Shown here: positions 22,429-51,232 of the stretch, one piece after another
How positions within the stretch are numbered: position 1 is the first letter of the stretch
Layout of the letters: every line of letters begins with the position of its first letter
Assembly (NCBI GenBank): GCA_903882825.1
Contig: CAIRYL010000168.1
Coordinates: 1-55,069, forward strand
Length of the DNA stretch: 55,069 nucleotides
Source of the DNA: an uncultured Candidatus Peregrinibacteria bacterium
GTDB taxonomy: Bacteria > Patescibacteriota > Gracilibacteria > CAIRYL01
Direction of reading: 5' to 3'
Program-made: the position numbers and the translations under genes
The notes under the pieces: model-generated
Told to the model about the DNA's origin: nothing
The model's input: only the letters and a program-made list of their open reading frames with translations
Databases searched by the model: none

Positions 22429-24192
22429 CTATTCCGCCTCCAACACACAAATATTCTGTTCCCGTAGCTCTTTTTCGGGCATAGATGCTGGAGAACGCAA
22501 CATGAGATCTCGTGCATTTTGGTCTTTTGGAAAAGCGATGACTTCGCGAATAGTGTGCTCATCTGCCCAGAGCATTACGAGGCGGTCAATTCCGAGTGCA
22601 CAGCCTCCATGTGGAGGACATCCATATTGAAAAGCCTTAATAATATGCCCAAATTTTGCTTCTGTTTCAGTAGGCGTTAATCCCAGTACTGCAAACATTT
22701 TTTCTTGAAGTTTTGAATCGTGAATTCGAATAGATCCTCCCCCCAGTTCTACTCCATTCATCACGACGTCGTATGCGTATGCACGCACTTTCATCGGATC
22801 AGACTCTAATAAATGAATATCTTCATCATTGGGACGAGTAAATGGATGATGCGCTGCTTGGAGAGTCCCATCTTCTTTTTGTTCAAAAAGTGGAAAATCT
22901 ACCACCCATGCAAATGAAAATTCATTTGGATTTTTAAGTCCAAAACGTTTTCCAATATCAGATCGTACTGCGCCTAACGGTTCTACTGCTTTTAAAAATT
23001 CTCCTGCTCCAAAAAATATTATATCTCCTTCTTGTGCACCTGTTTTTTCTCGTACCACTTGTAAAAATTCTGGAGTTCCATTTTTTGCAACTGGTCCAGA
23101 ATCTTCTCCGGTTCGGAGCCATGCCAATCCACCTGCACCGTGTTGTTGTGCCAATCGCGTAAGGTCTTCAATATCTTTTCGGGAAAGCTCTCCATATTTT
23201 TTGGGAACGCGAAGAGCAAAGAGATGTTCGGCTTTTTCAAAAATTCCAAACCCTGAATTTTTTGCATCATGACTCAGATTTACAAACTCCATACCGAAGC
23301 GCAAATCGGGCTTATCAGATCCATATTTTTCCAAAGCTTCTTTCCATGTAATTCTTGGAAATCGTCCGTTTATCAGATATTTTTTCCATTCTTTTTGTGG
23401 TGCACACTTTTCGGTAAGTTGATGGAGCATGTCTTCAATTACCTCCATAACATCATTTTGTTCTCCAAAACTCATTTCTAAATCGAGTTGCGTAAATTCT
23501 GGCTGACGATCACCTCGTAAATCTTCGTCTCGAAAACACCGAGCAATTTGAAAATACTTATCAAGCCCTCCTACCATACACAATTGTTTGAGTTGTTGTG
23601 GACTTTGTGGCAGTACATAAAATTGCCCACGGTGCAGGCGAGATGGGACAAGATATTCTCGAGATCCCTCTGGAGTTCCTTTGACCATAATGGGTGTTTC
23701 AATTTCTAAAAAATCAGCATTGTGATAAAAATTTCGAATAAGGTGCACCATATCATTTCGAAGCTTCATATTCTTTTGCATTTTTACCCGTCGAAGATCT
23801 AAATATCGATATTCTAAACGAAGGTCTTCCCGAACATCAGTTTCGGAATCAATTTCAAAAGGAGGTGTTTTTGACTCATTAAAAATCTGGATATCTTCTG
23901 CAAAAACTTCTATTTTCCCCGTTTCTAAATTGAGATTTTCAAGTCCTTCTCCTCGAGGACGAACCGTTCCTGTTATTTGTAATACCCATTCACTCCGAAT
24001 ATGTTCTGCCTTTGCATGAGCTTTTGCATTCACTTCTGGATCAAATACAATTTGAGTTAACCCATATCGATCACGAAGATCGATAAAAATAATTCCTCCA
24101 TGATCTCGACGATGGTATACCCATCCAGAAAGAGTAACTTTTTCCCCGGAATGAGTGAATCGAAGGTCATTACAAGTATGCGTTCTTAACAT
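22429..24192 (-). CDS. aspS: Aspartate--tRNA ligase (bacterial type)
   Basis: N-terminal OB domain (LSGWVYHRRDHGGIIFIDLRDRYG), the class II motifs FRDEDLRGDRQPEFTQLD and GGGSIRIH, and the terminal GCALGIDRLVM. Confidence 0.93.
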   Translation of the reverse strand: MLRTHTCNDLRFTHSGEKVTLSGWVYHRRDHGGIIFIDLRDRYGLTQIVFDPEVNAKAHAKAEHIRSEWVLQITGTVRPRGEGLENLNLETGKIEVFAEDIQIFNESKTPPFEIDSETDVREDLRLEYRYLDLRRVKMQKNMKLRNDMVHLIRNFYHNADFLEIETPIMVKGTPEGSREYLVPSRLHRGQFYVLPQSPQQLKQLCMVGGLDKYFQIARCFRDEDLRGDRQPEFTQLDLEMSFGEQNDVMEVIEDMLHQLTEKCAPQKEWKKYLINGRFPRITWKEALEKYGSDKPDLRFGMEFVNLSHDAKNSGFGIFEKAEHLFALRVPKKYGELSRKDIEDLTRLAQQHGAGGLAWLRTGEDSGPVAKNGTPEFLQVVREKTGAQEGDIIFFGAGEFLKAVEPLGAVRSDIGKRFGLKNPNEFSFAWVVDFPLFEQKEDGTLQAAHHPFTRPNDEDIHLLESDPMKVRAYAYDVVMNGVELGGGSIRIHDSKLQEKMFAVLGLTPTETEAKFGHIIKAFQYGCPPHGGCALGIDRLVMLWADEHTIREVIAFPKDQNARDLMLRSPASMPEKELREQNICVLEAE

Positions 24193-37648: not shown

Positions 37649-40600
37649 ATGTTTTTCCCACGTTTTGTAGCTCTTACGAGTGCGTTTTTTTTAATTTTTG
37701 GAAGCGTCATTCCTATTTTTGCACTTTCTCTAGAACCTGTTGCAGAAAATACTTCCACGGTTTCGCCTTCTTTTCCACCAGAACTTCAAAAAGAAATAGA
37801 TATTGTACAACCAATAGTGGAAGAAGTGCAAAAAATAGAAGAGAAATATGACAGCTATTCTTCTGTTCCTGCCGGAACAATTTTAAGTACGATGATTTCA
37901 TTAAAACTGAAACAGTGGGGTCAAAAATATCCAGATATTTCTCGAGAATCTTTTATAAATGCAATTGATCCTTCAAAAAAAACAGGTACTGGAAAAGATG
38001 GTACTTTTTTGGAAAGTTCGCGAGATTGGGAACAAGAAAATTTTTTAGAATCAACGGTTTCTCATTCTCAACTTTTGTATGATTGGAACGAAGGATTAGG
38101 AGAAATAAGTACTCTTTTTTCAGGTGACAATACTCCGCTCTCTGGAAATGAAATGGATATTATAACGGGAAAAAGGGCAATGGAAGAGAGCCTACAAACA
38201 GGATCTATTGGATCCACTCGCCCTGGAGAAGCCAACCCTGAAAATCAAACGGTGTATATTAAAGATATTCCAGCGGTGGAAACAAAATCTCATAATTATG
38301 ATCAACTCATACAACAAGAAAATTTAGCAGAAAAAATAAAAGTTCCAGAAATTATGAAACTGGTTCCCGCGGATATGATGGTGGTTCATTTTGCCGATAA
38401 AACAAAATTTGATTCGTTTTTAAAAGGTATAAATGCTCTTTCTGAACCTTTGCAAAAAGTAATGGGGAAAGATTCTTCTGTGCAGGCGAAAGAAGTAATT
38501 TTAAAACGACTCGGTATTACAGATGAATTTGATGTAGCAGAAGAGTTTGCTTTTGTGGCGGAAGATCTTGATTTTGTGCATCGTAATGATTTTGCTCTTA
38601 TTGTAAAATTTAAAAATAAAAGTACGGATATTATTGCAAAAATGATGCAAACAGGAGAAAACCGGTTTGGCACGGTTGGCGACTATTTTGTGTTTGCCAC
38701 CAGCCAAGATATGATGGACTGTATCACGATGGTTTTTACAAAAGAGGCACCTCTTTCTGTAAGTCGGAAAGCCTATGAATTAGGGCATCATAAAAATATA
38801 GAGGAAGCAACTCGATCACTGGCAGATGAAAAAGATTTTCACTATGCGTTAGGAGTATTAGACCCTCGAAAAGATGGGATTATTTATTTTTCAGATGCTT
38901 TTATCCGAAAACTTACGAGCCCCGAATATCGTTTAAATGCTCGTAGAAAAAATGGGATTATGCAGGAAGTTATCAAACTTCAGTACGAAGTTTTTGCGTA
39001 TAGAGGACTGGAAGGAGTATGGCCGAAAAATTTTAAAGAAATGGCAGACAAAAAATATGAAACTTCCACAACACTGGATGAATCGTTCCGTATTTCAGAT
39101 CAAGGTATTGTATCGCATATTGTTTGGGGAAGCCTTGCAGAACCAACTCCAATAAATCATGTACAGATCGATTTGGTTACGAAAGATGAAGAAGCGTTGT
39201 ATACCCGTTTTAGAAATGGTTACCAAAACTTTTTTCGAGAATTTTTTGATCCCATTGGGATTGCTATTTTGGTGGGAGACCGAATTTCTTTCCATACTAT
39301 TATTCTCCCACTCATAGATAATTCAGAATATAACTGGGTAAAAGCTATTTTTGGAGGGAATGGAAAAGAAGAATTTCGATTTCTTTCGCATGCAGATTTG
39401 TATACAGGAATTGCTTCGTTTCTGGTAACCAAATGGAGTTTAGACGATGCATTAGCAAAAATAGGGCAAATGGAAATAGGAGGGAGAAGTTGGCAATGGC
39501 AAATAAGAGATGATATCGAATTGTACTCTTCTGAAAAAAACACACTTCCTAACACTCTGGAAGATTTGAATACTTGGTCGAAGACCAATCCTGAACGGAG
39601 ACAATATTTGGAAGAATACTTTAAAGAGACGGGACTCGATTATAAAATAGATTTTAAATACGAAGTGTATGAGGGGAAAACAAAAGGATCGCGACAATGC
39701 TGGAGAGTCACCAATCTCCTTACTGGGGAATCCACAGGGAATATTAATGAGGATGAATGTTCAGGCACAGTACTCCCCGAAATTACGCCTCGCCCAATGA
39801 ATGATGAGCTTCAGCAAAAATATATAAATACCGCAGAAAAATGGATAAAAGAGGAGTTTACACTTCCCGAAAATGAACGAGTTTTTGATTTTTTTGGGAA
39901 AGAGATGATGGTAGGGATTATGGATAATTTTTCTGTTTCAACCAGTAATTTTTCAAATATTCATGGATTTTTAGCGTTTGAAATTCAGAATGTCCCTAAA
40001 ATGAAAAAATTTATGGAAATAGTCTACAACAAGGTTTTTTCATCAGAAATGAAAAATAGTGATATTGGGCAAGGTTTGAGCATGTTGGGGATTGGAGGAA
40101 AACCACTTTCAAAAGATATGAATGGGAAAGAAGTATTTATTATTCCTCTTCGTTGGCTCGATTTTTACTATTTTTTTACCGATGATCGTTTTTATATTAC
40201 GCCTTCTCGGCAAGTAGCAGAAAAAATTACATTGGCAATAAGCCAAAAAAATCCTGAACAAACCTCATTTTCTCCTCCTCTCCCCCGAATTCTTGATTAT
40301 ACCTCCAATACGGGAAATTTGTTGCTGGCATTTGATCTTGAAAAATTTTATACAGGAATAAATAATGAAAAAGCTCTGTATGAAGATTTTTCTGAATATA
40401 CACTTCGGAATGAATTTCAACAAAAAGCTTCTTATGTAGAAGAATCTTTTATATTAGCAAAAATTTTAAATTCCGATGTCCCAAATTTAGAAGCTGTAAA
40501 ACCTTATTATTCTCATATCCCAACTCATTTTTATACACTCCCATTTGTTATTGCAGAGAAGAAAATTGCGATAAAAGGACCACTCGGAGATATTCCTCTC

Positions 40601-41008
40601 GAAAAAATAGACAGTAAATATTCTTATATTGCCCTTCCTGATAATCGAGAAGACGGGAAAATAACGATTAAAAAACTCCTCGAGGGTGTAAATCTTGAGA
40701 ATCCTTTTAAAATAATTTCTGAAACAGTAAAAAGCGGAGGCGTATCGTTTGCGTTTACTCCGCATGGGGTAGATATTCGAACTGCTGTGTATAACCCTGC
40801 GTGGGCAGAGAAAGATGATGTGCGCTTTGGAGTGATACATACCGTGACCGATGAAATGATTTCAAATCTTACTTATAAATTGTTTTTTATTGGATGTGGG
40901 ATATTTCTTTTCCTGGGAGTTTTGTTCATTATTTTAAAAAAGCATAAAGAAACCCCAAATATTCCGGATACTCTTTCAGAAAATTCATCTCAAAATATTT
41001 CCCAATAA
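37649..41008 (+). CDS. Very large (1119 aa) hypothetical surface protein with an N-terminal signal/TM and a C-terminal TM anchor
   Basis: N-terminal FVALTSAFFLIFGSVIPIFA and C-terminal LFFIGCGIFLFLGVLFIILKK. No catalytic motif recognised. Confidence 0.6.
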   Translation: MFFPRFVALTSAFFLIFGSVIPIFALSLEPVAENTSTVSPSFPPELQKEIDIVQPIVEEVQKIEEKYDSYSSVPAGTILSTMISLKLKQWGQKYPDISRESFINAIDPSKKTGTGKDGTFLESSRDWEQENFLESTVSHSQLLYDWNEGLGEISTLFSGDNTPLSGNEMDIITGKRAMEESLQTGSIGSTRPGEANPENQTVYIKDIPAVETKSHNYDQLIQQENLAEKIKVPEIMKLVPADMMVVHFADKTKFDSFLKGINALSEPLQKVMGKDSSVQAKEVILKRLGITDEFDVAEEFAFVAEDLDFVHRNDFALIVKFKNKSTDIIAKMMQTGENRFGTVGDYFVFATSQDMMDCITMVFTKEAPLSVSRKAYELGHHKNIEEATRSLADEKDFHYALGVLDPRKDGIIYFSDAFIRKLTSPEYRLNARRKNGIMQEVIKLQYEVFAYRGLEGVWPKNFKEMADKKYETSTTLDESFRISDQGIVSHIVWGSLAEPTPINHVQIDLVTKDEEALYTRFRNGYQNFFREFFDPIGIAILVGDRISFHTIILPLIDNSEYNWVKAIFGGNGKEEFRFLSHADLYTGIASFLVTKWSLDDALAKIGQMEIGGRSWQWQIRDDIELYSSEKNTLPNTLEDLNTWSKTNPERRQYLEEYFKETGLDYKIDFKYEVYEGKTKGSRQCWRVTNLLTGESTGNINEDECSGTVLPEITPRPMNDELQQKYINTAEKWIKEEFTLPENERVFDFFGKEMMVGIMDNFSVSTSNFSNIHGFLAFEIQNVPKMKKFMEIVYNKVFSSEMKNSDIGQGLSMLGIGGKPLSKDMNGKEVFIIPLRWLDFYYFFTDDRFYITPSRQVAEKITLAISQKNPEQTSFSPPLPRILDYTSNTGNLLLAFDLEKFYTGINNEKALYEDFSEYTLRNEFQQKASYVEESFILAKILNSDVPNLEAVKPYYSHIPTHFYTLPFVIAEKKIAIKGPLGDIPLEKIDSKYSYIALPDNREDGKITIKKLLEGVNLENPFKIISETVKSGGVSFAFTPHGVDIRTAVYNPAWAEKDDVRFGVIHTVTDEMISNLTYKLFFIGCGIFLFLGVLFIILKKHKETPNIPDTLSENSSQNISQ

Positions 41009-47777: not shown

Positions 47778-48686
47778 TTGTTTATGTTTTCAGAAATTAT
47801 TTCTAAAATTTTGCATCTAAAAAAACAAAAAAATGCCATTATTTTGGCGCATAATTATATGCGACCAGAAATTTTTGAGGTGGCAGATGCGGTTGGAGAT
47901 TCTTTTGAACTTTCAAAATCAGCACAAGAAATGAAAGGAGATATCATTGTTTTTGCAGGTGTTCATTTTATGGCAGAATCGGCAAAACTGCTCAATCCCT
48001 CTAAAAAAGTTCTTCTTCCTTCTCTTGCGGCTGGGTGTTTTATGGCAGATACCATCACCGCAGAAGGACTGTTACGCCTCAAAAAAAAATACCCAAATGC
48101 TCCCGTTGTGGTGTATATGAACACCTCTGCCGAGGTAAAAGCCCTTTCCACTGCCACTTGTACTTCTTCTAATGCCTTAAAAATTGTAGAAAGTTTCGCG
48201 GAAGATACCATTATTTTTGCTCCCGATAAACATTTATGTGAATTTGTTCAAGACAGGACTCATAAAAAACTTATTCCCTGGGCAGGATTTTGCCATGTGC
48301 ATACCCAGCTTTCGCCCGCTTTTTTGCAGAAAACAAAAGAAAAATATCCAGGTGCGCATGTTCTTTTGCATCCCGAATCGCCCAAAAGGCTTTTCCCTTT
48401 TGCAGAACATATTTGCGGAACGGGTGGGATGAGCCAATACATTCAAAATCATCCCGAAGTGGATACTTTTTTAATTGGAACGGAAGAAGGAATGGTGGGC
48501 AGGCTGAAAAGAGATTTTCCCGAAAAAACATTCGTAGCCCTTATGGGAACTTGTATCAACATGAAGCAAATCACGCTGGACAATATTTTCCGTTCTCTGT
48601 CTCAAGAAAAGTACGAAATTACCATTCGAGATGAAATTTTTGTTCCCGCGCAAAAGTCTTTGGAGGAAATGATGAAGCGGAGTTAG
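47778..48686 (+). CDS. nadA: Quinolinate synthase NadA
   Basis: IILAHNYMRPEI, AGVHFMAESAKLL, VVVYMNTSAEVKA, HPES and GTEEGM. A TTG start at 47778 or the ATG at 47784. Confidence 0.9.
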   Translation: MFMFSEIISKILHLKKQKNAIILAHNYMRPEIFEVADAVGDSFELSKSAQEMKGDIIVFAGVHFMAESAKLLNPSKKVLLPSLAAGCFMADTITAEGLLRLKKKYPNAPVVVYMNTSAEVKALSTATCTSSNALKIVESFAEDTIIFAPDKHLCEFVQDRTHKKLIPWAGFCHVHTQLSPAFLQKTKEKYPGAHVLLHPESPKRLFPFAEHICGTGGMSQYIQNHPEVDTFLIGTEEGMVGRLKRDFPEKTFVALMGTCINMKQITLDNIFRSLSQEKYEITIRDEIFVPAQKSLEEMMKRS

Positions 48687-48706
48687 TGGTTTTTTATAAA
48701 TTTATT

Positions 48707-50566
48707 ATGTATTTAAAAAATATTGTTATCAAAAATATTGGACCAATAGAAAATCTTTCGGTTGAGCTTCCTTTTAAAGAAAATGGTGATCCTAAACCTG
48801 TTATTTTTGTTGGTGAAAATGGGTCTGGAAAAACAATTCTACAATCGCAAATAATAGATGGTTTCTATGAAATTGGAAGTTCCTTGTTTGATGATGTTGG
48901 TATTCAAGATGGATTAAAAAGAAATTATTATAAAGTTTCAGGAGGTGTGAATTTACAAACTGGCAAAGATAAGGGATTCTCTCTTTTAAAATTTATTGAT
49001 AGTGAAAATCAAACTTTAGAATATTTTGATAAAGTCGGGGAAGTGAGAAAAGAAGATTTTACAAGCTATATTACAGATTTTTCACTTTCTCCAAATAGTT
49101 CACAAAAATACCAAAAAGAAATAACAGGAATAAACGATACTAAAAAAGAAAAATTACAAAATGAGTGGATTCAGGGTGTTCACTTTTATCAGCCAGCCTA
49201 TAGATACGAAGAGCCTTTTTGGAAAAATGAGTCTTTTGTAGATTATATGAGATTTGAAGATAAAACGAGATTTTCGGGACAACTAGGAAAAGAGTTAGAA
49301 ATAATATCCTCAACAAAGGAGAGTAAATCTTATTTGATGGATTTAGTTTTGGATTTTACAAATTTCTCTAGTTCACAAAGCTCGAAAATCTTGAAACTTA
49401 TACAAAAAAAGATTTCTAATAAAGACTATATCTCGATAGAAGACACAATAAGTGAAGAGTATTCTTCTGACCAAATCACATGGCAAAATATAAATAACAT
49501 TTTAAAGCTGATAAAAAAGAGAGCTGATATTAGGTTTGGCATTGGTCATAGAGGAAGATATAGAGTTAGTATCGTAGAGCAAAATCAAGATGGAATTGTA
49601 AAACAACAATTATTACCAAGTATTGATAACTTATCGCTGGGAGAATCAATTTTATTGAATCTTTTTATAAATATTATTCGTCATGGTGATAATCCACCAA
49701 AAAATACAGCACAAATACAAGGGATTGTTGCAATAGATGAAATAGATGTTCATTTACACACAGATTTGCAAAATTCTGTATTACCAGAACTGATAAAACT
49801 ATTTCCAAAAATTCAATTTATTATTACTACTCATTCTCCTTTGTTTTTATTGGGAATGAAAAAGACTTTTGGTGAAGAAGGATTTGAAGTGAGAAATATG
49901 CCAAAAGGTGATTTGATAACAACGGAAAGATTTTCTGAATTTGAAAATGCCTATAATGTTTTGACGGAAACAGAAAAATTTGAAAACGAGAAAAAATTAC
50001 AAATAGAATCCTCCATAAAACCTGTCCTTTTTGTAGAAGGAGATTATGATATTAGGTATATACGAAAAGCTGCTGAACTATTGAATAAAAATTCCATATT
50101 AGAAGTAATACAAATATTTGATGGAGATGGGTTTGGAAATCTCGATAAAATATGGAAACACTATGATTCAAAGCTCTCAGAAGCTATTCCTCAAAAAGTC
50201 ATATTACTTTTTGATTGTGATACTGGAAAACAAGATACCGAAAAAGGAGTAGTCTTTAAAAGAATAATTCCATCTATAGATGGAAACTTAATAAAAAAGG
50301 GAATAGAAAACCTTTTTCCTACTACACTTATTAATAAAGCAAGAACTCATAAAAAAGCATTTATTGACTTTTTATCAGAAAGTCAATCAGAGATCAGAGG
50401 AGAGACTGTTATTACTCCTGAATCCTATAGAGTCAATAAAGATAAAAAAGGTGATTTATGTAATTGGATTTGCAAAAATGGAACAAAAGATGATTTTAAT
50501 AATTTTGAAAAAATATTTGAGATTATTGAAAGTATAATTCAGAAAAAAATTTTCGTAGAGTCGTAA
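48707..50566 (+). CDS. ABC/SMC-like ATPase fused to a C-terminal TOPRIM-type nuclease domain (OLD-family / fused PARIS AriA-AriB-like)
   Basis: Likely start MYLKNIVIKNIGPI at 48707. The ORF track starts at the GTG at 48686, overlapping the nadA stop. Walker A is GENGSGKT (48812-48835), the signature-like motif is LSLGES, Walker B is IVAIDEIDVHLH, and the H-loop is TTHSP. The C-terminal ~180 aa carry LFVEGDYD (50033-50050) and LLFDCDTG (DxD at 50213-50221), as in TOPRIM/DUF4435. Confidence 0.7.
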   Translation: MYLKNIVIKNIGPIENLSVELPFKENGDPKPVIFVGENGSGKTILQSQIIDGFYEIGSSLFDDVGIQDGLKRNYYKVSGGVNLQTGKDKGFSLLKFIDSENQTLEYFDKVGEVRKEDFTSYITDFSLSPNSSQKYQKEITGINDTKKEKLQNEWIQGVHFYQPAYRYEEPFWKNESFVDYMRFEDKTRFSGQLGKELEIISSTKESKSYLMDLVLDFTNFSSSQSSKILKLIQKKISNKDYISIEDTISEEYSSDQITWQNINNILKLIKKRADIRFGIGHRGRYRVSIVEQNQDGIVKQQLLPSIDNLSLGESILLNLFINIIRHGDNPPKNTAQIQGIVAIDEIDVHLHTDLQNSVLPELIKLFPKIQFIITTHSPLFLLGMKKTFGEEGFEVRNMPKGDLITTERFSEFENAYNVLTETEKFENEKKLQIESSIKPVLFVEGDYDIRYIRKAAELLNKNSILEVIQIFDGDGFGNLDKIWKHYDSKLSEAIPQKVILLFDCDTGKQDTEKGVVFKRIIPSIDGNLIKKGIENLFPTTLINKARTHKKAFIDFLSESQSEIRGETVITPESYRVNKDKKGDLCNWICKNGTKDDFNNFEKIFEIIESIIQKKIFVES

Positions 50567-50746
50567 TAGAATTTTATAATTCTTCCCTTTTTCTATGCCC
50601 CAAAATATCCAAGTGTTCCCTTTGACAGGCTCAGGAAGCGAAAAAGAAAAAATAGTTATTGAGCTTGTAAAAATAACCGATAAGGCTGGCTGAGCTTGTA
50701 TAATAAGTTGGCTGAGCTTATCGAAGCCAGATTTTAATATTTTTTT

Positions 50747-51232
50747 ATGTCTTCCTCTCTTCGCATTCTTGGCATTGATCCGGGCTACGCCACTATTGGT
50801 TTTGCGGTAATTGAAAAAACAGGTCAATCCATCCAAATTATAGATTTTGGGGTTATTACCACATCTTCAAAACTTTTATTTCCAGAGCGTTTAAAAAATA
50901 TTGCGGAAGATATTTCTCAAATAATAAAAAATTTTTCACCCGATTGCATGGCCATTGAAAAACTTTTTTGGGGTGCAAATGTCGATAATGCGATTCGTGT
51001 TGCAGAAAGTAGAGGAGTGATTGTCTTACAATCTGCTCTGTATCATCTTCCTCTTCATGAATTTTCACCCAATGAGGTAAAAAGCCAACTCGTAGGGAAT
51101 GGAAAAGCTCCAAAATTTCAAATTCAAAATATTTTAAAAATGAGGCTTGGTTTACAAGAAATTCCAAAACCAGATGATGCGGCTGATGCCCTTGCTATTG
51201 CACTGGTTGCCAGTGAAATGATGAGCCTCTGA
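50747..51232 (+). CDS. ruvC: Crossover junction endodeoxyribonuclease RuvC
   Basis: ILGIDPGYATIGFAV (catalytic Asp), AIEKLFW and the C-terminal PDDAADALAIAL. Confidence 0.92.
   Translation: MSSSLRILGIDPGYATIGFAVIEKTGQSIQIIDFGVITTSSKLLFPERLKNIAEDISQIIKNFSPDCMAIEKLFWGANVDNAIRVAESRGVIVLQSALYHLPLHEFSPNEVKSQLVGNGKAPKFQIQNILKMRLGLQEIPKPDDAADALAIALVASEMMSL

What the first reader, a model, noticed from the sequence alone, without database searches (positions are those of the whole stretch)
48686..50566. Stand-alone ABC-ATPase + TOPRIM (OLD / fused PARIS-like) defence candidate wedged between nadA and ruvC
Seen in sequence:
- One 620-aa ORF combines an SMC/ABC-type ATPase with a C-terminal ~180-aa module.
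- ATPase motifs: Walker A GENGSGKT, signature-like LSLGES, Walker B IVAIDEIDVHLH, H-loop TTHSP. A long helical insert lies between Walker A and the signature.
- The C-terminal module carries VEG-x2-D and a later D-C-D, the acidic constellation of TOPRIM nucleases.

Established knowledge: this architecture defines OLD-family nucleases (P2 Old, class 1 OLD). It also matches the ATPase + DUF4435 pair of the PARIS system, which has been reported to occur as a fusion.

Inference:
- The gene is visibly more AT-rich, and richer in ATA/AGA/TTA codons, than nadA, ruvC and pyrG around it.
- It abuts the nadA stop and is followed by a 180-nt spacer.
- It has no partner helicase (unlike Gabija or class 2 OLD) and no HNH partner (unlike Septu).
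- It therefore looks like a horizontally acquired single-gene immunity module in an otherwise streamlined genome. Such lineages are thought to be defence-poor.
Basis: partly seen in the sequence, partly recalled or inferred. Interest (0 to 1): 0.7.

Follow-up and report, generated by a model that had tools for sequence, protein, structure and literature searches.

The report
Stand-alone ATPase-TOPRIM nuclease defence gene
A single AT-rich gene between nadA and ruvC in a probable Peregrinibacteria (CPR) contig encodes a PtuA-type ABC ATPase fused to a retron-Eco2-type TOPRIM nuclease, an uncharacterised but widespread variant of the OLD-type anti-phage nucleases, most likely acquired horizontally.

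Summary
There is one intact ORF, most likely starting at the ATG at 48707 (619 aa). All ABC-ATPase motifs are present, and the C-terminal module carries EGDYD and DCD.

The C-terminal domain is a TOPRIM:
- A diverse family profile matches the TOPRIM domain of retron Ec67/Eco2 (E 2e-7). Its four catalytic residues align with E444, D448, D503 and D505.
- PADLOC RT-Toprim_I-C models hit 25 of 43 members.
- Foldseek ranks OLD C-terminal regions first, but weakly.
- hhalign to P2 Old gives 87% probability, colinear from Walker B to DxD.

The ATPase is nearest PtuA (Septu and retron I-A, E 1e-30). It is much further from AriA and TsOLD. No DUF4435 match was found, so a fused PARIS is not supported.

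The family is large (559 clusters at 50% identity). It has no conserved partner gene and often sits inside or beside restriction-modification operons, on plasmids or next to recombinases. The gene is a GC outlier here (z -4.5) and is AT-richer than its flanks in 12 of 12 homolog loci. The closest relative found has aspS, not this gene, after nadA.

Verdict: a horizontally acquired, single-gene, OLD-like defence nuclease, and a new domain-lineage combination. The defence role and the substrate (tRNA or DNA) are inferred, not shown.

The parts
48707..50566 (+). CDS for the ATPase-TOPRIM protein (619 aa plus stop). The mechanical ORF starts at a GTG at 48686, but the ATG at 48707 is the likely start.
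48707..49891 (+). N-terminal ABC/SMC-type ATPase domain of the PtuA clade (aa 1-395).
   Evidence: Pfam AAA_21 5e-10. PADLOC PtuA 1.4e-28. Family profile against PDB PtuA 1e-30 to 4e-22 over the whole domain. Foldseek PtuA about 4e-14.
48812..48835 (+). Walker A, GENGSGKT (K42).
49313..49516 (+). Helical (coiled-coil-like) insert in the ATPase, the presumed dimerisation element. Includes a 32-aa insertion (49367-49462) that most homologs lack.
   Evidence: AF2 helices 203-237 and 254-270; alignment
49631..49648 (+). ABC signature motif, LSLGES.
49724..49759 (+). Walker B and D-loop, IVAIDEIDVHLH (D344, E345, D347).
49826..49840 (+). H-loop, TTHSP (H376).
49922..50014 (+). Long linker helix between the ATPase and the TOPRIM (aa 406-436).
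50018..50542 (+). C-terminal TOPRIM nuclease domain with its helical extension (aa 438-612), of the retron I-C (Eco2) type.
   Evidence: Profile A4 against PDB Retron Ec67 residues 368-577, E 2e-7. PADLOC RT-Toprim_I-C 1.3e-7 for the query and 25/43 members. Foldseek top hits are OLD C-terminal regions, E 0.012, prob 0.92. hhalign to P2 Old 87%.
50036..50050 (+). TOPRIM motif IV, EGDYD (E444, D448). Aligns with the Eco2 catalytic residues E374 and D378.
50213..50221 (+). TOPRIM motif V, DCD (D503, D505). Aligns with Eco2 D460 and D462.
50300..50311 (+). Conserved GIEN (E534, N535). Candidate second-metal ligand, colinear with T506/E508 of BpOLD.
   Evidence: Conservation. The comparison is inference.
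50447..50449 (+). Invariant K581. Candidate catalytic lysine, colinear with K562 of BpOLD.
   Evidence: Conservation. The comparison is inference.
50567..50746 (+). 180-nt spacer before ruvC. No terminator-like site was found. It holds three TGAGCTT repeats.
47778..48686 (+). Upstream flank: nadA (quinolinate synthase).
   Evidence: Pfam NadA 1e-106
50747..51232 (+). Downstream flank: ruvC.
   Evidence: Pfam RuvC 2e-44

Best explanation
The gene encodes a self-contained, OLD-like defence nuclease made of two parts. The N-terminal part is an ABC ATPase of the PtuA clade, with a helical insert that probably mediates dimerisation or oligomerisation. The C-terminal part is a TOPRIM nuclease of the type fused to the reverse transcriptase in retron Eco2.

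Proposed mechanism, by analogy with Septu/PtuA, OLD, PARIS and Eco2:
- The ATPase assembly holds the nuclease inactive and acts as sensor and regulator.
- A phage- or mobile-element-derived cue releases or activates the TOPRIM site. Because many homologs sit inside restriction-modification operons, that cue may be an anti-restriction function.
- The two-metal site (E444, D448, D503, D505, with E534 and K581 as candidate auxiliaries) then cuts nucleic acid and stops the infection, possibly by abortive infection.
- The substrate is either tRNA/RNA, as for Eco2, AriB and P2 Old, or DNA, as for GajA, Eco8 OLD and TsOLD. tRNA/RNA is slightly favoured because the nearest characterised TOPRIM relative is Eco2.

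The gene was most likely acquired horizontally by this probable Peregrinibacteria genome.

Shown: domain architecture, conservation of catalytic motifs, family size, lack of a conserved partner, association with defence islands and mobile elements, and compositional anomaly.

Inferred: nuclease activity, substrate, trigger and the defence phenotype.
For: Architecture:
- Pfam AAA_21 passes its cut-off.
- PADLOC PtuA models reach 1e-28, and AriA 1e-16.
- Family profile A3 against PDB gives PtuA of retrons Ec83/Ec78/Eco7 and Septu at 1e-30 to 4e-22 across the whole ATPase, AriA at 1e-11, Ec67 RT-TOPRIM at 3e-5 and TsOLD at 0.002.
- Foldseek of the full model (pLDDT 79) returns PtuA at about 4e-14.

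TOPRIM:
- The diverse C-terminal profile A4 hits Retron Ec67 residues 368-577 at 2e-7. EG.TD aligns on E374/D378 and D.D on D460/D462. Mutating these four residues together (the dTOPRIM variant) abolishes Eco2 RNase activity and phage defence (PMC12916289).
- The motif pair EGxxD plus DxD or DxE is the retron I-C signature (PMC7736814). Both variants occur in this family.
- PADLOC RT-Toprim_I-C hits 25/43 members, best 5e-11.
- Pfam OLD-like_TOPRIM hits 8/43 members, best 9e-5.
- Foldseek of the C-terminal model (pLDDT 85) ranks the OLD C-terminal regions 6njv and 6nk8 first (E 0.012-0.03, prob up to 0.92), with GajA and Eco8 further down.
- hhalign of the family against P2 Old gives 87% probability, E 4e-6, colinear from Walker B through VEGKTE to ADCD.

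Defence and mobility context:
- 559 clusters at 50% identity have E <= 1e-30, and most listed hits are about 600 aa and match full length.
- Identity of 55-74% is seen across unrelated phyla.
- Neighbourhoods: embedded in type I RM (L003, L027); between the NgoPII endonuclease and a C5 methylase in a Tn7-like element (L004); upstream of type III RM (L007); after EcoRI-methylase plus GmrSD, with Shedu nearby (L015, L025); next to serine recombinases (L001, L015); on plasmids next to a RelE toxin or IS elements (L012, L013).
- No RT, HNH or helicase partner recurs.

Horizontal transfer:
- GC z = -4.5 in the window.
- The gene is AT-richer than its flanks in 12/12 homolog loci.
- The gene is absent after nadA in the closest relative.
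Against: - No experiment exists for any member of this family in the literature I could search.
- Structural support for the TOPRIM fold is weak on its own. No Foldseek hit reaches E <= 0.001, and TM is about 0.4.
- Pfam OLD-like_TOPRIM is below its gathering score for this protein (15.5-18.4 bits against 23.2).
- In this window the gene is flanked by housekeeping genes, with no RM system or mobile-element gene beside it and no insertion scars. Local context therefore gives no defence signal.
- Low GC is a trait of the whole family, so it does not date the acquisition.
- Some OLD-family proteins are not defence proteins, for example Cran1 in archaea (PMC12796447). For E. coli YbjD the TOPRIM was reported dispensable for the phenotype (abstract).
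Confidence: 0.72

Rival explanations
1. It is a fused PARIS system (AriA-AriB in one polypeptide): an anti-restriction-triggered ATPase that releases a DUF4435-type TOPRIM tRNase.
For: - The PADLOC AriA model covers aa 8-387 at 1e-16.
- PDB AriA scores 1e-11 with the family profile.
- Homologs are embedded in type I RM operons, as has been described for PARIS.
- AriB is also a TOPRIM (abstracts).
Against: - PtuA models and structures score far better than AriA (1e-28 against 1e-16; 1e-30 against 1e-11).
- No DUF4435 hit appears for the query at E <= 10 or for 43 diverse C-terminal domains at E <= 0.01.
- No AriB model appears among the nine PADLOC families hit by those 43 domains.
- No AriB structure is among the top 50 Foldseek hits.
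Confidence: 0.06
2. It is one component of a multi-gene system whose partner is missing or encoded elsewhere: an orphaned retron type I effector, or a Septu PtuA without PtuB. It would then be inactive or dependent on an unlinked gene.
For: - The closest solved relatives of both domains work inside multi-component systems: PtuA with PtuB and a retron RT, and the Eco2 TOPRIM fused to an RT and caged by msDNA.
- The NCBIfam PtuA equivalog is the only strong NCBIfam hit, although it lies far below its cut-off.
Against: - No RT, HNH or other protein recurs next to the gene in 11 other neighbourhoods.
- Some copies are alone on a 12-kb plasmid or among housekeeping genes.
- The fused TOPRIM supplies the nuclease that PtuB would provide.
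- Rfam finds no ncRNA near the gene.
- The ORF is intact with all motifs conserved.
Confidence: 0.1
3. It is a housekeeping DNA-repair or chromosome-maintenance ATPase-nuclease (like RecF/SbcC/Rad50, or like the archaeal OLD-family protein Cran1), placed with ruvC for functional reasons.
For: - It lies immediately upstream of ruvC on the same strand.
- There is a weak, sub-threshold SMC_N match.
- Cran1 shows that OLD-family proteins can have non-defence roles.
Against: - The distribution is patchy across phyla at high identity.
- The gene is absent beside nadA in the closest relative.
- Neighbourhoods are variable and rich in defence or mobile genes, and no other examined context has ruvC next to it.
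- Copies occur on plasmids.
- The gene is AT-rich relative to its host in 12/12 loci.
Confidence: 0.05
4. It is a selfish addiction or exclusion module of mobile elements and RM cassettes. It would stabilise its carrier or exclude competing plasmids and elements rather than act against phage.
For: - It lies next to serine recombinases, Tn7-like transposition genes, IS elements and a RelE/ParE toxin, and on plasmids.
- It is embedded in RM operons, which themselves behave as addiction modules.
Against: - This is not mutually exclusive with defence, and the same contexts are typical of anti-phage systems.
- In this window no mobile element is adjacent.
Confidence: 0.07

Closest known systems
Class 1 OLD family nucleases (P2 Old, Thermus scotoductus OLD, Vibrio cholerae OLD, E. 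coli YbjD)
   Same: - A single gene of about 590-620 aa.
- An N-terminal ABC ATPase with a helical insert and a C-terminal TOPRIM with E...DxD.
- No dedicated partner gene.
- hhalign of the family against P2 Old gives 87% probability, colinear from Walker B to DxD.
   Different: - The ATPase is much closer to PtuA than to any OLD (1e-30 against 0.002 for TsOLD).
- Pfam OLD-like_TOPRIM scores 15.5-18.4 bits here, below its 23.2-bit cut-off, against 64.6 bits for P2 Old.
- The review PMC10568477 describes class 1 OLDs as not lying near other defence genes, whereas this family often does.
Retron-Eco2 (Ec67, type I-C) RT-TOPRIM
   Same: - It is the best sequence match for the C-terminal domain, over its whole length (E 2e-7).
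- It has the same EGxxD and DxD/DxE motif pair.
- All four catalytic residues are conserved.
   Different: - Here the TOPRIM is fused to an ABC ATPase, not to a reverse transcriptase.
- There is no ncRNA or msDNA.
- Regulation by an msDNA cage therefore cannot apply.
Septu PtuA and the retron I-A (Ec78/Eco7, Ec83) PtuA ATPases
   Same: They are the best sequence and structure matches for the ATPase domain over its whole length.
   Different: - No PtuB HNH partner occurs here or in homolog loci.
- The nuclease is a fused TOPRIM instead.
- The NCBIfam PtuA equivalog scores 81 bits against a cut-off of 500.
PARIS (AriA ATPase plus AriB DUF4435 TOPRIM; class 4 OLD)
   Same: - ABC ATPase plus TOPRIM logic.
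- Homologs are embedded in type I RM operons.
- AriA is detectably related.
   Different: - One polypeptide rather than two.
- No DUF4435 or AriB match.
- AriA is a weaker match than PtuA.
Retron I-B effectors (Eco8 OLD; class 3 OLD) and Gabija GajA (class 2 OLD)
   Same: ATPase-TOPRIM fusion. There are weak partial Foldseek matches to the Eco8 and GajA TOPRIM cores, and 2/43 members hit PADLOC GajA models.
   Different: - No RT or ncRNA and no UvrD-like helicase nearby.
- No sequence-level PDB hit to Eco8 or GajA with the family profile.
- The retron I-B motif IV is EDxxL (I-B1) or EGxxE (I-B2), not EGxxD.

Membership tests
TOPRIM domain superfamily | Invariant glutamate after the first strand. 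| tested here: met
   E444 follows strand 440-443 and is at least 90% conserved in 75 diverse sequences. It aligns with Eco2 E374. The definition is quoted from PMC6755086.
TOPRIM domain superfamily | Conserved glycine after strand 2. | tested here: met
   G475 follows strand 469-472 and is at least 90% conserved.
TOPRIM domain superfamily | DxD motif after strand 3. | tested here: met
   D503-C-D505 follows strand 498-502. D503 is invariant. The second acidic residue is D, or E in a subgroup.
TOPRIM domain superfamily | The fold: a four-stranded parallel sheet between helices, similar to solved TOPRIM domains. | tested here: inconclusive
   For the C-terminal model (pLDDT 85), the Foldseek top hits are the OLD C-terminal regions 6njv and 6nk8, but with E 0.012-0.03 and TM 0.38-0.43. 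No hit reaches E <= 0.001.
OLD family nucleases (ABC ATPase plus TOPRIM) | An N-terminal ABC ATPase with Walker A, signature, Walker B and H-loop motifs and a helical insert. | tested here: met
OLD family nucleases (ABC ATPase plus TOPRIM) | Detectable homology to the archetype P2 Old across both domains. | tested here: met
   hhalign of A3 against P2 Old: probability 87%, E 4e-6, 157 columns from Walker B to DxD.
OLD family nucleases (ABC ATPase plus TOPRIM) | Pfam OLD-like_TOPRIM (PF20469) at its gathering score. | tested here: not met
   15.5-18.4 bits against a cut-off of 23.2. Only 8/43 members reach E <= 0.01. P2 Old scores 64.6 bits.
OLD family nucleases (ABC ATPase plus TOPRIM) | Auxiliary catalytic residues for two-metal catalysis: an acidic residue at i+4, a glutamate in the helical domain, and a lysine. 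| tested here: inconclusive
   D448, E534 and K581 are conserved and colinear with BpOLD E404, E508 and K562.
Class 1 OLD (defined by context) | A single gene without a dedicated helicase, RT or split nuclease partner. | tested here: met
   The window flanks are nadA and ruvC. No recurrent partner appears in 11 other neighbourhoods.
Class 2 OLD / Gabija | A UvrD/PcrA-like helicase gene (gajB) immediately downstream. | tested here: not met
   The downstream gene is ruvC. No such helicase gene follows the gene in the homolog loci.
Class 3 OLD / retron type I-B | An adjacent retron RT and ncRNA. | tested here: not met
   No RT domain occurs in the neighbours here or in the homolog loci. Rfam finds only four tRNAs in the window.
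PARIS (class 4 OLD), fused form | An AriB-type DUF4435 TOPRIM domain. | tested here: not met
   No PF14491 hit for the query at E <= 10 or for 43 members at E <= 0.01. No AriB model is among the PADLOC hits.
PARIS (class 4 OLD), fused form | An AriA-type ATPase as the closest relative. | tested here: not met
   AriA scores 1e-16 and 1e-11, against PtuA at 1e-28 and 1e-30.
Septu (PtuAB) | A PtuA ATPase together with an adjacent PtuB HNH nuclease. | tested here: not met
   The ATPase is PtuA-like, but the NCBIfam PtuA equivalog scores 81 bits against a cut-off of 500. No PtuB-type HNH partner is conserved: the window has none, and the only adjacent HNH-bearing genes among the homolog loci are GmrSD-type.
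Retron type I-C TOPRIM (Eco2) | Motif IV EGxxD with motif V DxD or DxE. | tested here: met
   EGDYD and DCD here; EGPTD and DPE in a subgroup. Profile match to Ec67 at 2e-7.
Retron type I-C TOPRIM (Eco2) | Fusion to a retron reverse transcriptase, with a cognate ncRNA. | tested here: not met
   The N-terminal domain is an ABC ATPase. No retron RNA was found.

The most novel reading that the evidence does not exclude
This gene represents a large, unnamed clade of single-gene 'PtuA-TOPRIM' immune proteins. They would be free-standing relatives of the modules that type I retrons recruited (the I-A ATPase and the I-C TOPRIM). They would work without any RT, msDNA or HNH partner and are preferentially embedded in restriction-modification operons. 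There they would act as a second line of defence that senses anti-restriction or nuclease activities of phages and shuts down translation by tRNA cleavage. If so, the family would be a missing link for how retron effectors and Septu/OLD/PARIS systems exchanged modules, and it would be a compact defence system used even by CPR bacteria.
Probability: 0.3. Interest if true: 0.6.

Novelty: new variant of a known kind. Interest (0 to 1): 0.4.

Why it matters
ATPase-TOPRIM (OLD-like) nucleases are a major theme in anti-phage immunity, covering P2 Old, Gabija, retron Eco8 and PARIS. This family combines a PtuA-lineage ATPase with an Eco2-lineage TOPRIM in one stand-alone gene.

- It falls below the curated OLD-TOPRIM model.
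- Databases annotate it only as 'AAA family ATPase' or 'hypothetical'.
- None of the PADLOC models shown covers the whole protein; the ATPase and the TOPRIM match separate sets of models.
- The family is nevertheless large and is repeatedly embedded in RM operons and mobile elements.

Characterising one member would add a compact single-gene system to the defence catalogue. It would test whether TOPRIM substrate choice (tRNA or DNA) follows the TOPRIM lineage. It would also shed light on how retron effectors were recruited.

For this window the practical value is a much better annotation, plus evidence that a reduced CPR genome carries a horizontally acquired defence-type gene. It is not a conceptual surprise.

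Tried and rejected
- PDB sequence searches with the single protein and with the close-homolog profiles (A1, A2) found only PtuA/AriA for the ATPase and nothing for the C-terminus. A profile from 29-51%-identical representatives was needed to reach Ec67.
- Foldseek of the full-length model was dominated by the ATPase, so a separate C-terminal model was required.
- Foldseek of the C-terminal model against the viral library gave only noise.
- I looked for insertion scars (target-site duplications or terminal inverted repeats) around 48300-51000 and found only short, chance-level repeats.
- The promoter and terminator scan gave counts no higher than in shuffles, and no terminator after the gene.
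- Rfam found only four tRNAs and no retron-like or other ncRNA.
- The synteny test was limited. It shows absence at that position but not a clean empty site.
- tblastn against the phage collection found no full-length homolog, and only one turned up in IMG/VR. A phage origin is therefore not supported.
- DUF3226, RloB, AbiLii and GajA matches occur in only 1-2 of 43 members. They indicate the wider TOPRIM neighbourhood, not membership.

Full report
**Observation**

The ORF reported at 48686-50566 (+) exists. It is 626 aa from a GTG that overlaps the nadA stop codon by one base. The biological start is almost certainly the ATG at 48707, giving 619 aa. Every aligned homolog begins MYLKN/MYIKN, and the public protein identical to this one (P0001) is 619 aa.

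- Walker A GENGSGKT
- signature LSLGES
- Walker B/D-loop IVAIDEIDVHLH
- H-loop TTHSP
- EGDYD
- DCD

In an alignment of 75 representatives that are only 29-51% identical to the query, the Walker A residues, S310/G312, D344, H376, G445, D448, D503, N535 and K581 are invariant. E345, D347, E444, G475 and E534 are at least 90% conserved. These are selected functional motifs, not chance strings.

The flanking genes are NadA, RuvC, CTP synthase and ProRS by Pfam. The spacer to ruvC is exactly 180 nt.

**Composition**

The gene has GC 0.285, against 0.366 +/- 0.018 for the 38 other long ORFs of the window (z = -4.5). Its GC3 is 0.182 against 0.245 +/- 0.031 (z = -2.05). It is the most AT-rich long ORF of the contig.

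The same holds elsewhere: in 12 of 12 homolog loci the gene is AT-richer than its flanks, by 1 to 19 points, even in hosts with 44-54% GC. Low GC is therefore a trait of the family. That fits a horizontally circulating gene but does not date the acquisition here.

**ATPase domain**

- Pfam gives AAA_21 above its cut-off and SMC_N below it.
- PADLOC is dominated by PtuA models (best 1.4e-28), followed by the retron I-A ATPase and AriA at 1e-16.
- NCBIfam gives only the retron Ec78 PtuA equivalog, at 81 bits against a cut-off of 500.
- Against solved structures, the diverse family profile matches PtuA of retrons Ec83, Ec78/Eco7 and of Septu at 1e-30 to 4e-22 over the whole ATPase. AriA scores 1e-11 and Thermus OLD only 0.002. 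GajA and Eco8 OLD are not among the 60 best matches shown.
- The AlphaFold model (pLDDT 79) has a long helical insert between Walker A and the signature. It matches PtuA structures at about 4e-14 by Foldseek.

The ATPase therefore belongs to the PtuA lineage. That is the Septu/retron I-A ATPase, not the canonical OLD lineage.

**C-terminal domain**

- On its own, the query's C-terminus gives only a sub-threshold Pfam OLD-like_TOPRIM match (E 0.003-0.005, 17.8-18.4 bits against 23.2). It gives clear PADLOC matches to the RT-Toprim fusion of type I-C retrons, at 1.3e-7 to 2.4e-7.
- Across 43 diverse C-terminal domains, 25 hit RT-Toprim_I-C models (best 5e-11). Eight hit Pfam OLD-like_TOPRIM (best 9e-5). 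GajA, AbiLii, RloB and DUF3226 are each hit by one or two members. None hit DUF4435 or AriB.
- A profile of these domains matches residues 368-577 of the solved Retron Ec67 (Eco2) protein at 2e-7, over the whole domain. EG.TD aligns on E374/D378 and D.D on D460/D462.
- Mutating those four residues together abolishes Eco2 RNase activity and phage defence (PMC12916289). Here they are E444, D448, D503 and D505.
- The motif pair EGxxD plus DxD or DxE is what Mestre et al. list as the signature of I-C TOPRIM domains, as opposed to EDxxL or EGxxE in I-B (PMC7736814). Both the DxD and the DxE variants occur in this family.
- A separate AlphaFold model of the domain (pLDDT 85) shows the strand-helix pattern of a TOPRIM. 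The glutamate follows strand 1, a conserved glycine follows strand 2 and DxD follows strand 3 (definition).
- Foldseek ranks the OLD C-terminal regions of Xanthomonas and Burkholderia first, with GajA and Eco8 lower. Support is weak (E 0.012-0.03, TM about 0.4, nothing below 0.001).
- hhalign of the full family profile against P2 Old gives 87% probability (E 4e-6). The alignment is colinear from Walker B through VEGKTE to ADCD.

Taken together, the C-terminal domain is a TOPRIM nuclease domain with an intact catalytic tetrad. It is closest to the retron I-C type and more distantly related to the OLD TOPRIM.

**Family and context**

The family is large. There are 1,611 hits among the 8,000 candidates scored in the 90%-identity clustered collection, and 559 clusters at 50% identity have E <= 1e-30. 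Most listed hits are about 600 aa and match full length. Proteins 55-74% identical occur in Campylobacterota, Gammaproteobacteria, Eremiobacterota, Patescibacteria and Peregrinibacteria. That pattern points to horizontal transfer.

I examined eleven neighbourhoods besides the window:
- two copies inside type I RM operons (L003, L027)
- one between an NgoPII-type endonuclease and a C5 methylase in the cargo of a Tn7-like element (L004/L005)
- one upstream of a type III RM system in another Peregrinibacteria genome (L007/L008)
- two directly after an EcoRI-type methylase and a GmrSD/HNH enzyme, one of them with Shedu nearby (L015, L025)
- two of the above or others abutting a large serine recombinase (L001, L015)
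- two on plasmids, next to a RelE/ParE toxin or IS elements (L012, L013)
- two alone among housekeeping genes (L006, L026)

No reverse transcriptase, HNH partner or helicase recurs. The protein is a self-contained unit that travels with defence islands and mobile elements. It is rare in phage genomes.

**The window itself**

The contig most likely comes from a Peregrinibacteria (CPR) genome. NadA is 83% identical, and AspRS about 91% identical, to those of a Candidatus Peregrinibacteria MAG. In that relative nadA is followed by aspS, not by this gene. The gene is therefore not a syntenic core gene, although the region is rearranged and no clean empty site was seen.

Around the gene there are no insertion scars, no terminator and no ncRNA. 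The other large ORFs that gave a Pfam match are housekeeping or cell-surface genes (RecG, ArgJ, DnaJ, a MiaB-like enzyme, MFS transporters).

**Mechanism**

By analogy with its relatives, I propose three steps:
1. The PtuA-type ATPase oligomerises through its helical insert and keeps the TOPRIM site silent.
2. An infection cue activates it.
3. The two-metal TOPRIM site then cleaves nucleic acid to stop the phage, possibly at the cost of the cell.

E444, D448, D503 and D505 form the core of that site. E534 and K581 are colinear with BpOLD E508 and K562.

The substrate is open. TOPRIM domains of Eco2, AriB and P2 Old cut tRNAs. GajA, Eco8 OLD, TsOLD and Vibrio OLD cut DNA. Because the nearest characterised TOPRIM is Eco2, I lean slightly to tRNA/RNA.

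The repeated embedding in RM operons suggests a PARIS-like logic, in which the protein backs up restriction when it is inhibited. That idea is inference only.

**Comparison and membership**

- By architecture and by the context-based scheme of the OLD field, this is a class 1-type OLD-family protein: a single ATPase-TOPRIM gene.
- It fails the Pfam OLD-like_TOPRIM gathering threshold, and its ATPase is not of the OLD lineage.
- It is not Gabija (no helicase).
- It is not a retron effector (no RT or ncRNA).
- It is not Septu (no PtuB).
- It is not a fused PARIS (no DUF4435, and AriA is a weaker match).

The best description is a new domain-lineage combination within the known ATPase-TOPRIM defence theme. 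I found no paper describing or testing this family. My literature access is limited to open-access text, so prior description elsewhere cannot be excluded.

**Verdict**

Its interpretation is supported, with two corrections: PARIS is the wrong relative, and PtuA plus the Eco2 TOPRIM are the right ones. The finding is a solid, useful annotation and a reasonable candidate for experimental defence testing. It is not a conceptual surprise. Interest 0.4.

Noticed in passing
window 50655-50725 (spacer before ruvC): There are three copies of TGAGCTT(G/A)T at about 50660, 50691 and 50713. The middle one runs into a TATAAT, and CTGGCT/AGCCAG inverted ends flank the last two. This may be a promoter/operator for ruvC.
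   Followed up: no
window 49367-49462: The window protein carries a 32-aa insertion (SSSQSSKILKLIQKKISNKDYISIEDTISEEY) at the tip of the ATPase helical insert that most homologs lack. Two other homologs (P0033, P0119) have unrelated insertions at the same site, so this is a variable surface.
   Followed up: partly
window 37649-41008 (+): A 1119-aa ORF with no Pfam match at E <= 1e-6, the largest unannotated protein of the contig.
   Followed up: no
L015:376-4360 and L025:2667-6758: The same three-gene string recurs in two unrelated contigs: an EcoRI-type methylase, a GmrSD_N/HNH enzyme, then the ATPase-TOPRIM gene, with 6-14 nt gaps. This suggests an operon-level association with a methylase and a GmrSD-type (type IV-like) restriction enzyme.
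   Followed up: partly
L001:7769-9028 and L015:4344-5690: In two contexts a large serine recombinase gene converges on the ATPase-TOPRIM gene and overlaps its 3' end by 8-17 nt. The pair may move together as a small integrative element.
   Followed up: no
L009:5995-8771 compared with window 22432-24192 and 47778-48686: In the closest Peregrinibacteria relative, nadA is followed by aspS, which lies 24 kb away on the opposite strand in this window. Gene order around nadA is therefore not conserved between these genomes.
   Followed up: partly
alignment A1, homologs P0089, P0093, P0102, P0108, P0109, P0120: A subgroup of the family replaces EGDYD...DCD with EGPTD...DPE and has a differently organised segment after strand 2. 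This parallels the I-C1 versus I-C2 split of retron TOPRIM domains.
   Followed up: partly
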